64,000 nucleotides of DNA from Candidatus Spongiisociaceae bacterium. GTDB lineage: Bacteria > Actinomycetota > Acidimicrobiia > Spongiisociales > Spongiisociaceae. The stretch covers positions 1,728,001 to 1,792,000 of the forward strand of contig OZ253564.1 in NCBI GenBank assembly GCA_965262915.1, read 5' to 3'. The position numbers and the translations under genes were made by a program. Of the stretch, positions 1,108 through 4,045 are shown in pieces (the first letter of the stretch is position 1; every line of letters begins with the position of its first letter). The notes beneath the pieces are model-generated. The model was not told the DNA's origin, did not search any database, and worked only from the letters and a program-made list of their open reading frames with translations.

Positions 1108-2369
1108 GGAAAGCCTCCCAGCCCCCGGACAACAACCGGTAGCCGATACTAAGCCACACCCGCCACTAGCGGTCCGAGAAGCCGCAGCCGGCCCATTCTC
1201 CGATGCTTCGCCCCGGTCAGCTCACACCTTCTACCCGAGCGGTACCACCCGGAGTACGGCCCTGACCGGACGTGACCCCGTCCGCAAGGCCGGTCCGAGC
1301 GAAGGCGTGGCCAACCCCCTGCCTTACTCATGGCTGGTCCGTCGTAGTCACGGCTATGAGTCCCGAGGTCGGCCGACGGCCCGTCAAAGAACTCGTAGCG
1401 GCGTTGGTCGCTGTCTTGAGGCAGGCCGAGGATGTGGGGAACACTCCCGAGGAGATGGCTACTCGTAAGGGAACGTCTCCTCTACCCCGACCAGTACCTG
1501 AGCCACTTCCCTTGGGCTGCGTCATGGCAGGAGGCGCACCAAACAGGTGTCACCTTCGAGGACGTTGTCACATCATCGGGCTAGTGATCGCCATCAATGC
1601 CGCTCCTCTTGGACCGTTTGATGTGGACCACCATCACCGATGAACTGTTGGCGCGTCTGAGGATACTCAACGGTCGGGACACAGACCTGGCCGCTGACGC
1701 GACTCGGGTCGCGAACCGCCTGAGAGACGCCCTATTAGCCGTGTCCCCGGCTCTTGAACGTGCCGTGGGAGACAAGCTGATGTCGACACCTGGTCTCAGA
1801 GCTGCGCTGGTGAGGTGGCCCACCCCCGCGGCGCTGCGAACCGCTGGCAAAGCCCGCGTCCAGACGCTGATATCCAAACGGTCCAAGCGCACCGCCACCA
1901 CACTCACCGACCAGATCTGGGCTGCGCTCCGCTCCCAGACCGTCACGGTGGTTGCCGAAGCGACCTGGGGCGAAACTATTGGTGACCTGGCTGGCGGCCT
2001 GGACCGGATCATCGCCCGCCGCCAGCGGCTCGCAGCCGACATCGAGGAGGCGTTCTTGGAGCATCCGCTCCGAACAAGTCCTCAACAGCATGTGCGGGTT
2101 CGGGCCCCGCACCAGCGCCCGAACCCTCGCTGAGATCGGCGACCCACACCGTTTCGCCAACCCAGGCCGGCTAGCCGCCTACGCCGGGCTTGCCCCCGTC
2201 AACTGGCAATCAGGCCGCACCAGCAACACCCGACGGGCACGAGGCGGCAACCACCGCGTCGGCAACGCCATGTTCATCGCCGCGTTCGTCGCTGCCCAAC
2301 ACGACCCCGACGCCCGCGCCTACTACCTGCGCAAACGAGCCCAAGGCAAAGAACACACTCATAATGGAA

Positions 2370-2625
2370 TGGCTCTTTCCTTTGGGGGCCACCTGCGAAG
2401 ATGGGGTGGCCCCTTGGAGCGGGGGGCGGGTCTGACTCAAAAGAACACTGGCGTGCGCTTGCGTTGCCTTTGCGTTGATCTGTCGGCCTGTCCCCCGGTC
2501 CAGGGAAGAGCGGGGTTTCGGCTCCGAGCGGATGTGACCTAATAGGAGCTTTAGCTTCCCAGCACCGTGAGTGTACTGTCCACCGCTTTTTGCCGGAACC
2601 CCGCAACAAGAGTAGCGCCCTCGAG
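2370..2625 (+). ncRNA. Putative bridge RNA of IS110 copy A (ends approximate)
   Basis: Non-coding left end containing AAAGAACAC (2440-2448 = left target flank), TGCGTTG (2471-2477 = reverse complement of right target flank), ATAGGAGC (2542-2549 = right-end donor) and TGAGTG (2568-2573 = reverse complement of left-end donor). Confidence 0.8.
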
Positions 2626-2637
2626 GAGGTGGTGGTC

Positions 2638-3870
2638 GTGTCGGGGAATCGGGTTGATGTGTTCGGTGGGGTTGATACCCATCGTGACACCCATGTAGCG
2701 GCGGTGGTGGATACTGCTGGTCGCCTGTTGGGGTCAGAGTCGTTCGCAGCGGAGGGAGCTGGGTATCAGCGGTTGGTCGCCTGGCTGGGATCGCAGGGAC
2801 ATCTGGTCCGGGTCGGGGTAGAAGGAACCGGTAGTTACGGCGCCGGGCTGGCCCGCTATCTGACCGAGGCCGACATCGAGGTGGTGGAGGTGAACCGGCC
2901 GAACCGCCAGCTACGCCGCCAGAAGGGCGGGAAGTCTGACAGCGTCGACGCCGAGGCAGCAGCTCGGTCGGCCGCCTCGGGCCAAGCAACCGCAGTTCCC
3001 AAGTCCGGTGACGGTCCGGTCGAGTGCCTGCGGATGCTGCTGGTGGTCCGCCGCTCCGCGGTCAAAGCCCGCACCCAGGCCGCCAACCAGATCCACTCTC
3101 TGGTGGTTACCGGCCCTGAGCAGGTCAAACAACAGCTAACAGGCATGAATCTCAAAGCCCAGGTCCGAGTTTGCGCCCGGTTCCGACCCGGCACAGACCA
3201 CACCACCACCGCCTACGCGAAGCGTGCCCTGCGGCATCTGGCCCGCCGATACCAAACCCTCGACACAGAGATCGGCGAACTCGACACCGAGATCAGAGGC
3301 CTCTGCGCGAAGGCGAACCCGGCGCTGCTGGCGGCAGAAGGTGTCGGTCCTGACACAGCCGCCGCTTTGTTGGTCGCAGTCGGCGACAACCCCGGGCGTA
3401 TGAAATCGGAACGGTCCTTTGCGGCGCTGTGCGGCACCAGCCCCGTCCAGGCATCATCGGGACAGACCATGCGGCATCGTCTCAACCGGGGCGGCGACCG
3501 GCAAGCAAACTGTGCGCTGTGGCGCATCGCTACCACCCGGATACGCCACGACGCCCGCACCAAAGACTACGTAACCCGACGCCAGACCGAAGGAAAGAAC
3601 CGAAAAGAGATCATCCGCTGCCTCAAGAGGCACATCACCCGAGAAATATACCGACTCATCACTAACCCGCCACCAACCCCGAACTGCGCGAAGCTGCGCA
3701 CCCTACGCCAACAAGGCGGCATCACCATCACCCAAGCCGCCCACGCTCTCCGAACCCACCCTGCCCGCATCTCAGAAATCGAACGCGGCCGAGACCACAA
3801 CCACCAGCTCGCTACCCGATACCAGAACTGGCTCCGAACCCACCAACCCGCCCCACCATCATCGATTTGA
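2638..3870 (+). CDS. IS110 DEDD recombinase with C-terminal XRE-like HTH
   Basis: GGVDTH, VGVEGTGSYG and KSDSVDA (DEDD), SPVQASSG (Tnp serine), HRLNRGGDRQAN. C-terminal LRTLRQQGGITITQAAHALRTHPARISEIERG. GAGGAGG RBS before GTG 2638. Confidence 0.93.
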   Translation: MSGNRVDVFGGVDTHRDTHVAAVVDTAGRLLGSESFAAEGAGYQRLVAWLGSQGHLVRVGVEGTGSYGAGLARYLTEADIEVVEVNRPNRQLRRQKGGKSDSVDAEAAARSAASGQATAVPKSGDGPVECLRMLLVVRRSAVKARTQAANQIHSLVVTGPEQVKQQLTGMNLKAQVRVCARFRPGTDHTTTAYAKRALRHLARRYQTLDTEIGELDTEIRGLCAKANPALLAAEGVGPDTAAALLVAVGDNPGRMKSERSFAALCGTSPVQASSGQTMRHRLNRGGDRQANCALWRIATTRIRHDARTKDYVTRRQTEGKNRKEIIRCLKRHITREIYRLITNPPPTPNCAKLRTLRQQGGITITQAAHALRTHPARISEIERGRDHNHQLATRYQNWLRTHQPAPPSSI

Positions 3871-4045
3871 CAATCATAGGAGCATCAACGCAGCCGTCAT
3901 CTGCGTCGCCCGCCGACGCCCCAACATCATCCTGGCCATGCTCAAAACCCAAACCCCCTACCAACCACCCCAAACCCAACCCGAAACCCCCCAAAACCTA
4001 CCCCAAGCGGCTTGACAACAAGACAGAGACACCCCCCCGGGGGGG

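What the first reader, a model, noticed from the sequence alone, without database searches (positions are those of the whole stretch)
1610..4030. IS110 copy A is guided into the coding sequence of a different IS110 transposase
Seen: excision rejoins GKEH|NAAVICVARRR in frame, and the copy A guides equal the codons around K-E-H-N-A. This segment resembles the GKxHNAAxICxARRR motif recalled from actinobacterial IS110 C-termini. Inference: RNA-guided targeting of one IS110 subgroup by another. Together with copy B, both targets are mobile elements, which suggests an element-on-element or anti-transposon system.
Basis: partly seen in the sequence, partly recalled or inferred. Interest (0 to 1): 0.8.

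Follow-up and report, generated by a model that had tools for sequence, protein, structure and literature searches.

The report
Bridge-RNA IS110 inserted in another IS110
A small jumping gene of the IS110 family carries a guide RNA whose two short guides spell out the exact spot inside a different, decayed IS110 transposase gene where it now sits. Its sister elements in the same genome are each aimed at another jumping gene, which extends a known mechanism to a new set of targets.

Summary
Copy A (window 2356-3887, 1530 bp plus a duplicated CA) is an intact IS110-family element. It sits inside the C-terminal coding region of a different, defective IS110-family transposase gene, here called T (1611-2355 and 3886-4015). 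Removing A restores GKEH|NAAVICVARRR in frame. Uninterrupted T-like genes in relatives read the same, and one public contig joins 2355 to 3886.

A's left end folds into a two-loop, bridge-RNA-like structure. Nine bases in the 5' arm of the first loop equal the left flank. The reverse complement of the 3' arm equals the right flank.

The genome holds 34 such left ends with 10 guide types. In the 8 types with clear ends, the guides co-vary with their own flanks (112 of 120 positions).

The mobile-element bias is real. Those 8 types lie in or next to other insertion sequences: ISL3 ends, an IS21 end, an IS630-like gene and two other IS110 lineages. In related Acidimicrobiia genomes, at least 21 of 70 flanking ORFs carry transposase or integrase domains, against 2 of 40 at random control sites.

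A dedicated anti-transposon function is not shown. T is already decayed, and at least 12 perfect ISL3 targets remain empty. This is ordinary bridge-RNA targeting with mobile-DNA targets, as known for IS4321/IS5075.

The parts
1611..2355 (+). Left part of T, the interrupted IS110-family transposase gene. It is 5'-truncated, and the reading frame shifts near 2065-2085.
   Evidence: Homology with the other T copies starts at 1611. PF01548 C-terminal part and PF02371. NF033542 positions 224-317. Relatives carry about 365 nt more coding sequence upstream.
2356..3887 (+). Copy A: an IS110-family element of 1530 bp with the dinucleotide CA at both junctions (2356-2357 and 3886-3887).
   Evidence: Three copies 99-100% identical with the same ends. 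The joined form skips 1530 bases with 2 ambiguous letters.
2358..2637 (+). Non-coding left end of A.
   Evidence: It lies upstream of the GTG start at 2638.
2417..2600 (+). Bridge-RNA-like region: two stems, each enclosing an internal loop (target-binding loop, then donor-binding loop).
   Evidence: Fold z-score -3.65. Consensus structure with compensatory changes in 8 of 24 predicted pairs over 29 sequences. Script-based consensus fold. A 177-nt contig from an RNA-library run covers 2407-2583; this is only a weak hint.
2440..2448 (+). Left target guide, AAAGAACAC.
   Evidence: Identical to window 2348-2356, the 9 bases left of ACTCATA. Co-varies with the flank across guide types.
2471..2477 (+). 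Right target guide, TGCGTTG.
   Evidence: Reverse complement of CAACGCA at 3886-3892.
2542..2549 (+). Left donor guide, ATAGGAGC.
   Evidence: Identical to 3876-3883 near the right end of A. Conserved in the family.
2567..2573 (+). Right donor guide, GTGAGTG.
   Evidence: Its reverse complement, CACTCAC, matches CACTCAT at the left end in 6 of 7 positions.
2638..3870 (+). Transposase gene of A (410 aa) with a C-terminal helix-turn-helix extension.
   Evidence: PF01548, PF02371, HTH_31/HTH_3. NF033542 'IS110 family RNA-guided transposase' at 209 bits against a cut-off of 140. The frame is open in all three copies.
3871..3885 (+). Right end of A (...CATAGGAGCAT).
3886..4015 (+). Right part of T: the last 42 codons (from 3887) and the stop codon.
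   Evidence: Translation NAAVICVARRR...QAA*. Homology with the other T copies.
31285..32761 (-). Copy B: a sibling IS110 element (about 81% DNA identity to A) with different target guides (ACTGAAATC, and TCATCG whose reverse complement is CGATGA).
32762..34190 (-). Body of the ISL3-family IS that hosts copy B. The outer 8-9 bp of its right inverted repeat lie at 31277-31285.
   Evidence: PF01610, PF14690, PF13542. The left inverted repeat at 34190 mirrors the split right repeat. Empty right ends read ACTGAAATC-CG-ATGAGCC.

Best explanation
Copy A is an autonomous IS110-family insertion sequence that works like IS621. Its left end encodes a bridge RNA.

One internal loop of that RNA holds two guides: AAAGAACAC, and TGCGTTG, which is the reverse complement of CAACGCA. 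Together they specify a 15-16 bp site around a CA core. The second loop holds guides that match the element's own two ends. The DEDD/serine recombinase then joins donor and target at CA.

The programmed site happens to lie in the codons for K-E-H-N-A near the C-terminus of the transposase of a different IS110 lineage (T). A has hit that site at least twice, independently.

A belongs to a clade, found in Acidimicrobiia genomes, whose members keep the RNA scaffold and donor guides but have diversified their target guides. In this genome every variant with clear ends is aimed at another insertion sequence.

The most economical reason for this bias is that such targets are harmless to the host, present in many copies and themselves mobile. 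That would make them a safe harbour with a free ride, as with IS4321/IS5075 in Tn21-family repeats. Inactivation of the target IS would then be a by-product.

Shown by sequence: the anatomy, the guide-flank identity and co-variation, the empty sites, the independence of the hits and the bias towards mobile elements.

Inferred: that the RNA is made and used, the chemistry of recombination, and the selective reason for the bias.
For: Protein.
- PF01548 plus PF02371.
- NF033542 'IS110 family RNA-guided transposase' at 209 bits against a cut-off of 140.
- D13, E62, D101, D104 and S273/S274 are invariant in 5 paralogs. Their assignment as catalytic residues is recalled from IS621, not tested here.

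RNA.
- Two-domain fold with z = -3.65.
- The consensus fold of 29 left ends keeps the stem around the target loop, with both-side changes at 8 of 24 pairs. The guide columns are hypervariable and the scaffold is conserved.

Guides.
- 34 left ends in the genome fall into 10 guide types.
- For 8 types, own-flank match is 112 of 120. Mean matches to the flanks of other guide types are 4.7 of 9 (left) and 1.75 of 6 (right).
- In other genomes, 32 of 35 unique sites match at 7 or more of 9 left-guide positions, and 25 of 35 at 4 or more of 6 right-guide positions.

Insertion event.
- Empty T sites in relatives.
- A contig that joins 2355 to 3886 with 2 ambiguous letters.
- No unoccupied site within 1 mismatch of the 15-mer remains in the genome.
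- The A copies are 99.1% identical while the T flanks are about 90% identical.
- The same pattern holds for copy B's subfamily: element parts 99.5-100% identical, host ISL3 parts 88-98%.

Targets.
- ISL3#1 right repeat (types B/C).
- ISL3#2 left end (E, G) and stop-codon region (H).
- Left end of an IS21-like element (D).
- Beside an IS630-like gene (F).
- End of another IS110 lineage, X (I).
- Coding sequence of T (A).
- Sources.
- Only 11.1% of the genome lies in repeats of 300 nt or more.

Relatives.
- At least 14 of 35 left-flank and at least 7 of 35 right-flank ORFs carry transposase or integrase domains, against 2 of 40 control ORFs. Fisher p = 0.0012.

Precedent.
- IS621 bridge RNA (PMC11208160; passages read).
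- seekRNA, and IS4321 targeting Tn21-family repeats (PMC11187229; passages and section 13 read).
Against: - No experiment was done, and no circle junction was seen. One search lists no joint that goes back from the right end to the left end; contigs drop rare forms.
- Rfam gives no match in window 1-8000 at E up to 1.
- The register between left guide and junction differs by one base between guide types. A, E, G, H and I pair up to the C of the core; B, D and F stop one base earlier unless a G-U wobble is allowed. I could not resolve the exact core rule.
- The donor guides never vary, so they give no co-variation evidence.
- Some elements sit where their guides do not match:
  - genome 3665077: B/C guide, both flanks differ;
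  - genome 293227: I guide;
  - genome 341581: J guide;
  - L041 in another genome: 3 of 9 and 2 of 6.
- A3, the third A copy (genome 1292073), is at a non-IS site matching only 12 of 15 bases.
- The safe-harbour reason is inference only.
- The Pfam control output showed only 25 of its 38 families, so the 2 of 40 is a lower bound.
- The flank ORFs were simply the longest open frames, many of them probably spurious.
- Kin are not independent. Several flank IS110 hits are neighbouring siblings.
Confidence: 0.82

Rival explanations
1. Dedicated transposon-against-transposon interference. On this view the clade is selected, for its own competitive benefit or for the host's, to disable other insertion sequences by splitting their terminal repeats or truncating their transposases. 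Guide changes would track the resident IS repertoire.
For: - All 8 guide types with clear ends lie in or beside other ISs.
- Insertion positions are disabling ones:
  - 9 bp from the tip of the ISL3#1 right repeat;
  - 12 and 34 bp from the ISL3#2 left tip;
  - inside transposase coding sequence for A, and for L092 in another genome.
- Some guides aim at the right end of sibling IS110 elements (L047, L073, own genome 4427098).
- Another IS110 lineage, X, sits in the donor loop of three left ends of this clade. That looks reciprocal.
- Enrichment holds in relatives.
Against: - At least 12 perfect ISL3#1 targets remain unoccupied, against 16 occupied.
- All three T copies are defective in other ways as well, so nothing shows that A stopped an active element.
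- The genome remains IS-rich: 11.1% is repeats.
- The same bias is expected from purifying selection against insertions in host genes, together with multi-copy targets.
- No defence-family hit.
- No host-benefit data of any kind.
Confidence: 0.12
2. The nested structure arose once and was then copied. A composite of T with A inside was duplicated, or moved by T's machinery or by homologous recombination, so the two A-in-T copies would not be independent guided hits.
For: Both A-in-T copies have the same junctions and the same orientation.
Against: - The A parts differ at about 0.9% of positions while the adjoining T flanks differ at about 10%.
- The second T copy carries a further 1.8-kb IS that the window copy lacks.
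- Both T copies are defective.
- A third A copy sits at an unrelated site that shares 12 of the 15 target bases.
- Gene conversion among A copies could mimic this pattern and is not excluded.
Confidence: 0.04
3. Chance resemblance: the loop sequences do not guide anything and merely happen to resemble the flanks.
For: None found beyond the elements listed in the Against line of the best explanation, which sit at sites that do not match their guides.
Against: - 15 of 15 matches at fixed loop positions for A.
- 112 of 120 over 8 guide types. No non-identity permutation exceeded 104.
- 32 of 35 sites in other genomes match.
Confidence: 0.01

Closest known systems
IS621 and other IS110-group elements with a bridge RNA (Durrant et al. 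2024, PMC11208160; Hiraizumi et al. 2024, PMC11208158 seen in the search listing only)
   Same: - DEDD plus serine recombinase.
- Non-coding left end upstream of the gene, folding into two internal loops.
- Left and right target guides in one loop, donor guides in the other.
- A 2-bp core repeated at both junctions.
- No terminal inverted repeats.
- Guides co-vary with natural targets.
   Different: - Core CA (CG in the ISL3 target) instead of CT.
- Transposase of 410 aa with an extra C-terminal helix-turn-helix.
- Hosts are Acidimicrobiia (record titles).
- No Rfam match.
- The targets are other ISs. REP-type targets are described for some other IS110/IS1111 members.
- Nothing here has been tested at the bench.
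[quoted passage not shown]
   Same: - A DEDD-transposase IS that inserts at one fixed position inside the terminal repeat of another transposon.
- Many independent hits.
- This is the direct precedent for copy B in the ISL3 repeat.
   Different: - IS1111-group elements carry the guide RNA (seekRNA) downstream of the gene and have subterminal inverted repeats. Here the RNA is upstream.
- For copy A the target is coding sequence of another IS110, not a terminal repeat.
The IS1111-attC group, and REP-targeting members (ISPa11, ISPpu9, ISPpu10) (passages, listings and abstract starts)
   Same: Family members whose guides are set on short, repeated, dispensable sequences.
   Different: Those targets are integron recombination sites or host REP repeats, not insertion sequences.

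Membership tests
IS110 family, IS110 group (bridge-RNA-guided IS) | N-terminal DEDD RuvC-like domain and C-terminal Tnp domain with a conserved serine | tested here: met
   PF01548 (91.8 bits) and PF02371 (71.8 bits). NF033542 at 209 bits against a cut-off of 140. D13, E62, D101, D104, S273 and S274 are invariant in 5 paralogs. Their catalytic role is recalled from IS621.
IS110 family, IS110 group (bridge-RNA-guided IS) | Long non-coding end upstream of the transposase gene that folds into two stem-enclosed internal loops | tested here: met
   A 280-nt left end. Fold z = -3.65. Consensus structure over 29 sequences with compensatory changes in the stem around the target loop. The donor-loop stem appears in single-sequence and 9-sequence folds but was only partly recovered in the 29-sequence consensus.
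IS110 family, IS110 group (bridge-RNA-guided IS) | Target-loop guides that match the two flanks and co-vary with them | tested here: met
   A matches 9 of 9 and 6 of 6. Eight types total 112 of 120, against at most 104 for any non-identity permutation. In other genomes, 32 of 35 sites match at 7 or more of 9.
IS110 family, IS110 group (bridge-RNA-guided IS) | Donor-loop guides that match the element's own ends | tested here: met
   ATAGGAGC (2542-2549) equals 3876-3883. The reverse complement of GTGAGTG matches the left end in 6 of 7 positions. These guides are invariant in the clade, so there is no co-variation. The left donor guide sits 3 nt further from the junction than the left target guide does.
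IS110 family, IS110 group (bridge-RNA-guided IS) | No terminal inverted repeats, and a short core shared by donor and target and present at both junctions | tested here: met
   CA lies at both junctions of A. The joined contig has 2 ambiguous letters. Empty ISL3 sites read C-CG-A, and occupied ones have CA on the left and CG on the right.
IS110 family, IS110 group (bridge-RNA-guided IS) | Circular double-strand intermediate, and an RNA bound by the recombinase | not testable with these tools
   No back-joint is listed; contigs drop rare forms. An RNA-library contig over 2407-2583 is only a weak hint.
Rfam-curated RNA family | Match to a covariance model | tested here: not met
   No match in window 1-8000 at E up to 1. 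This says nothing about function if no bridge-RNA model for this clade is in the library.
Anti-mobile-element defence system | Membership of a described defence family, or a shown cost to the target element with benefit to the carrier | tested here: not met
   PADLOC gives 0 families for the transposases of A and B. At least 12 perfect ISL3 targets are unoccupied. Benefit was not testable.

The most novel reading that the evidence does not exclude
This Acidimicrobiia IS110 clade may be a guild of specialised parasites of other insertion sequences.

Its bridge-RNA target loops would be repeatedly re-set onto the ends or transposase genes of whichever ISs share the genome: ISL3, IS21, IS630-like, other IS110 lineages, and even the right ends of its own siblings. 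A second IS110 lineage (X) in turn sits in the donor loop of this clade's RNA gene.

That would amount to RNA-guided transposon-against-transposon warfare, in which each hit disables the target copy. IS load in these symbiont genomes would then be shaped partly by elements attacking elements.
Probability: 0.2. Interest if true: 0.65.

Novelty: new member of a known kind. Interest (0 to 1): 0.4.

Why it matters
This is a clean natural example of bridge-RNA programming. One genome holds 10 guide variants on one conserved scaffold, with both occupied and empty targets available for most of them. That gives a ready-made co-variation set for working out the guide rules of a non-IS621 clade: a CA/CG core, a one-base register shift, and tolerated wobbles.

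It also extends the known habit of IS1111-group elements of nesting in transposon ends. The extension reaches the IS110 group proper and adds new target classes, including the coding sequence of another IS110 transposase.

If the mobile-element bias proves to be selected, it bears on how IS load is regulated in IS-rich symbiont genomes. As it stands, it is a well-documented instance of a known mechanism and not a new kind of system.

Tried and rejected
- Rfam scan of window 1-8000 at E up to 1: no match.
- megablast of A against PLSDB plasmids: no match.
- Exact 15-mer target in 29 genomes of the taxonomic family: 0 of 29. A's guide region with up to 2 mismatches: found only in the window's own genome, 1 of 29. 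A-type occupancy therefore could not be studied outside this genome.
- I tried to fix a single core-and-register rule for all guide types and could not. Two registers remain.
- The idea that the 2.9-kb ISL3::B unit moves as a composite was rejected. The B parts are 99.5-100% identical while their ISL3 hosts are 88-98% identical, with correlation 0.24 over 91 full-length pairs of 120.
- Read laying:
  - The X1 joint at 2355/3886 has only 24 nt on its shorter side, so it was not counted as bridging.
  - No back-joint (circle) was listed.
  - The RNA-library runs X19 and X17 cover only parts of the stretch. The uncovered parts are no finding.
  - The depth contrast in X19 is 86.8 for the 177-nt contig over the left end, against 3.1 for a 173-nt contig inside the gene. 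Contigs cannot give RNA levels, ends or strand, and DNA can be present in such libraries, so this is only a hint.
- Per-site Pfam classification of the 70 flank ORFs was not done. Only family tallies were obtained, so the counts are lower bounds built from non-overlapping family groups. An offline blastp assigned 12 of the 70.
- The control output listed 25 of 38 families.
- Literature: four searches found no paper describing IS110 elements aimed at other IS110 transposase genes, or a family-wide tally of mobile versus host targets.
No earlier findings were used.
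Full report
**What is at 1610-4030.**
The window is positions 1,728,001-1,792,000 of a single-contig, 5.06-Mb genome with 64% G+C. Between 2356 and 3887 lies a 1530-bp element, copy A.
- It has an intact 410-codon gene (GTG at 2638 to 3870). The gene carries the two IS110 domains, PF01548 and PF02371, plus a C-terminal helix-turn-helix.
- It passes NCBI's equivalog model NF033542, 'IS110 family RNA-guided transposase', at 209 bits against a cut-off of 140.
- Two more copies, 99.1-99.2% identical, lie at genome 713,843 (minus strand) and 1,292,073.
- Aligning the three copies fixes the ends. 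To the left of ACTCATAATGG the flanks diverge, and to the right of GGAGCATC they diverge. CA is present at both junctions.

**The interrupted gene.**
- The left flank (2084-2356) translates to ...GGNHRVGNAMFIAAFVAAQHDPDARAYYLRKRAQGKEH and carries PF02371 at 79.6 bits.
- The right flank (3887-4015) translates to NAAVICVARRRPNIILAMLKTQTPYQPP...*.
- The two pieces are in one frame once A is taken out.
- I call this gene T. It is a different IS110 lineage: 35% identity to A's protein over 86 residues of the Tnp domain, and 29% over 48 residues at the N-terminus of an orthologous copy.
- The window copy of T is a relic:
  - Homology with other T copies begins only at 1611.
  - About 365 nt of coding sequence present in relatives is missing.
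  - The frame shifts near 2065-2085.
- Only three T copies exist in the genome:
  - the window copy;
  - a copy at 715 kb that also carries A at the same point, plus a further 1.8-kb multi-copy IS;
  - an unoccupied, frameshifted copy at 698 kb that reads GKRHNAAVVCVARRR, with four base differences in the 15-mer.

**Proof that A is an insertion.**
- I examined ten T-like loci in other genomes of the same taxonomic family. Nine run uninterrupted through this point and one is truncated there.
- L137 reads GKEHNAAVICVARRR with DNA AAAGAACAC|AACGCC.
- In public runs, one 291-nt contig of X17 joins 2355 directly to 3886. It has 101 nt on the shorter side and two letters that fit either side, which is the duplicated CA.
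- Two X1 contigs show the same joint but with only 24 nt on one side, so I do not count them.

**The guides.**
Upstream of A's gene the 280-nt left end folds into two stem-enclosed internal loops (z = -3.65).
- The first loop has a 12-nt 5' arm ending in AAAGAACAC (2440-2448), then a small GGC...GCC hairpin, then an 8-nt 3' arm TTTGCGTT followed by GATC.
- The 5' arm equals the nine bases to the left of the insertion.
- The reverse complement of TGCGTTG (2471-2477) is CAACGCA, which is the core C plus the six bases to the right.
- The second loop holds ATAGGAGC, which equals the right end of A. It also holds GTGAGTG, whose reverse complement matches the left end in 6 of 7 positions.
- This is the layout described for the IS621 bridge RNA, with left and right target guides and left and right donor guides around a two-base core (PMC11208160, passages read).

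**Co-variation.**
A pattern search for the conserved scaffold finds 34 left ends in the genome, carrying 10 different guide pairs.
- For the eight types with identifiable ends, each left guide matches its own left flank at 8-9 of 9 positions. Each right guide matches its own right flank at 5-6 of 6.
- The total is 112 of 120. Matches to the flanks of other guide types average 4.7 of 9 and 1.75 of 6. None of 100,000 permutations other than the identity exceeded 104.

Exceptions within the genome:
- A B/C-guide element at genome 3,665,077 has flanks that do not match its guides.
- An I-guide fragment at 293,227 and the single J-guide fragment at 341,581 match poorly.
- Several copies have one or two mismatches.
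- The third A copy sits at GGAAGAACAC|AACGAGCG, which matches 12 of 15. This site is intergenic, next to an AAA-ATPase gene. Such off-target hits on partial matches are described for IS621 (abstract of 10.64898/2026.08.31.748434).

One thing I could not settle is the register.
- In types A, E, G, H and I the left guide pairs up to the C of the core.
- In types B, D and F it stops one base earlier, unless the following U is read as a wobble.

**The same holds outside this genome.**
- A profile of five paralogous transposases retrieved 80 loci. All their record titles name Acidimicrobiia or unclassified metagenome-assembled genomes, several of them sponge-associated.
- My scaffold pattern found no target loop in 13 loci.
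- 39 sites had both ends and enough flank, and 35 of these were unique.
- Of the 35, 32 match the left guide at 7 or more of 9 positions, and 25 match the right guide at 4 or more of 6.
- A consensus fold of 29 diverse left ends keeps the stem around the target loop, with both-side changes at 8 of 24 predicted pairs. The guide columns are the most variable in the alignment.

**What the guides are aimed at in this genome.**
- Types B/C (17 left ends, including window copy B at 31285-32761, minus strand). They sit 9 bp from the outer tip of the right inverted repeat of an ISL3-family IS (PF01610, PF14690, PF13542).
  - Empty ends read ACTGAAATC-CG-ATGAGCC.
  - 16 ends are occupied, and 30 motif hits are not.
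  - Of those 30, 12 carry the identical 16-mer.
- Types E and G sit 12 and 34 bp inside the left end of a second ISL3-family IS. Type H sits at the stop codon of that same IS.
- Type D sits at the left end of an IS21-like element (rve, Mu-transpos_C_2, IstB).
- Type F sits about 120 bp from a single-copy gene with the HTH_32/HTH_29 domains typical of IS630-type transposases. The IS630 label is my reading.
- Type I sits at the end of another IS110 lineage, X (PF01548).
- Type A sits in T.

Flank copy numbers agree with this: about 44 copies for ISL3#1, 8-12 for ISL3#2 and 14 for X. Only 11.1% of the genome lies in repeats of 300 nt or more.

The hits are independent.
- Within copy B's subfamily the elements are 99.5-100% identical while their ISL3 hosts are 88-98% identical.
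- For A, the figures are 99.1% against about 90%.

**Targets in other genomes.**
- I took the longest open frame within 1.2 kb on each side of the 35 unique sites.
- On the left, at least 14 of 35 carry transposase domains: IstB 3, IS110 3, ISL3 3, DDE_Tnp_1 2, rve_3 2 and TnpB-type 1.
- On the right, at least 7 of 35 carry transposase or integrase domains.
- The same procedure at 20 random sites of the window's own IS-rich genome gave 2 of 40 ORFs, both from one site that fell on an ISL3::B unit. Fisher one-sided p = 0.0012.
- Caveats:
  - The tallies are by family, not by protein.
  - 13 of the 38 control families were not displayed.
  - The control comes from one genome.
  - Relatives are not independent.

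- In L092, an element of this clade interrupts the Tnp domain of another IS110 transposase (42% identical to A), between ...NRRGDRQLN and AIHTIAIS....
- In L047 and L073, and in a truncated left end in the own genome (4,427,098), the guides spell the right end of sibling elements.

**Is the RNA made?**
- A run recorded as a metatranscriptomic library, labelled sponge metagenome, holds a 177-nt contig over 2407-2583 at k-mer depth 86.8. It has two differences, neither in a guide.
- The same run holds a 173-nt contig inside the transposase gene at depth 3.1.
- The interval coincides with the predicted two-loop RNA.
- Contigs cannot show ends, strand or level, and DNA can contaminate such libraries. 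I treat this as a weak hint only.

**Interpretation.**
- The mechanism is the known one, and I file A as a member of the bridge-RNA-guided IS110 group. Every defining feature that sequence analysis can test is met.
- What the data do not support is a dedicated anti-transposon system:
  - The T copies are relics with other lesions.
  - Many perfect ISL3 targets are free.
  - The genome is still full of ISs.
  - No defence family matches.
- The bias is what one expects when insertions in host genes are purged and multi-copy, mobile, dispensable sequences are the targets on which an element can multiply. The same explanation is commonly offered for IS4321/IS5075 in Tn21-family repeats and for the attC- and REP-targeting relatives (for the facts; the rationale is my inference).
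- Disabling the target copy is a visible consequence of these insertions, and whether it is selected remains open.

**Novelty.**
- Four literature searches found the bridge-RNA and seekRNA papers and the classic transposon-end precedents.
- They found no description of IS110 elements programmed against other IS110 transposase genes. They also found none of a single clade whose guide variants each sit on a different IS.
- I rate this a new member of a known kind, with a modestly interesting ecological pattern attached.

Noticed in passing
genome 287306, 3638548 and 4421931 (outside the window); right flank held as L033: A second IS110-family lineage, X, has a 345-aa PF01548 transposase and about 14 copies. 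It sits at the same point (after TGATAG) inside the donor-binding loop of three left ends of the A/B clade, which destroys their bridge-RNA gene. Most other X copies lie in GGTGTCAG tandem repeats ending in AGACAC. Conversely, the type-I guide of the A/B clade targets the X boundary (TAGACAC|CCCAGG).
   Followed up: partly
L047:2748, L073:3947, and genome 4427098: One guide type (TTGACAAAC, and a right guide whose reverse complement is ATAGA) matches the right end of sibling IS110 elements (GATTTGACAA.C|ATAGGAGCATC). These elements therefore insert into the ends of their own relatives.
   Followed up: partly
L092:2761-4236: In another Acidimicrobiia genome, an element of this clade interrupts the Tnp domain of a different IS110 transposase, between NRRGDRQLN and AIHTIAIS. 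This is a second, independent case of an IS110 inside IS110 coding sequence.
   Followed up: partly
window 3691-3795 (residues 352-386 of A's transposase): All five aligned paralogs carry a C-terminal XRE-type helix-turn-helix (HTH_31/HTH_3) beyond the Tnp domain. From memory, IS621 lacks it. Its role is unknown.
   Followed up: no
window 4435-6003 (-): A 522-aa transposase with DUF772, DDE_Tnp_1 and DDE_Tnp_1_6 (IS5/IS1182-like) lies immediately downstream of T. The first 6 kb of the window is therefore a pile of three different ISs.
   Followed up: no
window 4021-4045: Just after T's stop codon there is a C7-G11 run that forms a perfect G+C hairpin (CACCCCCCC GGGGGGGGGGGTG). It may be a terminator or part of T's right end. 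Homology with the 698-kb T copy continues to about 4200.
   Followed up: no
genome 715994-717808 (outside the window): The second T copy that carries A is also interrupted by a 1815-bp IS with TGAATCCACCGG... inverted ends. That IS has at least 12 further copies at 89-100% identity.
   Followed up: partly
genome 3665077, and L041: Two elements sit at sites that their own target guides do not match. In L041, an element carrying the L092-type guide sits in the ISL3 repeat typical of type B. This suggests exchange of left ends between elements, or insertion guided in trans by a sibling's RNA.
   Followed up: no
window 1-1159 (-): An open-ended ORF with repeated '...CPxxxVTRAQMATFLxRA...' units and beta-propeller-like WSPDG repeats precedes the IS cluster. 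Similar units recur beside other elements of this clade (the L137 right-hand ORFs, and the left flank of the type-D element).
   Followed up: no
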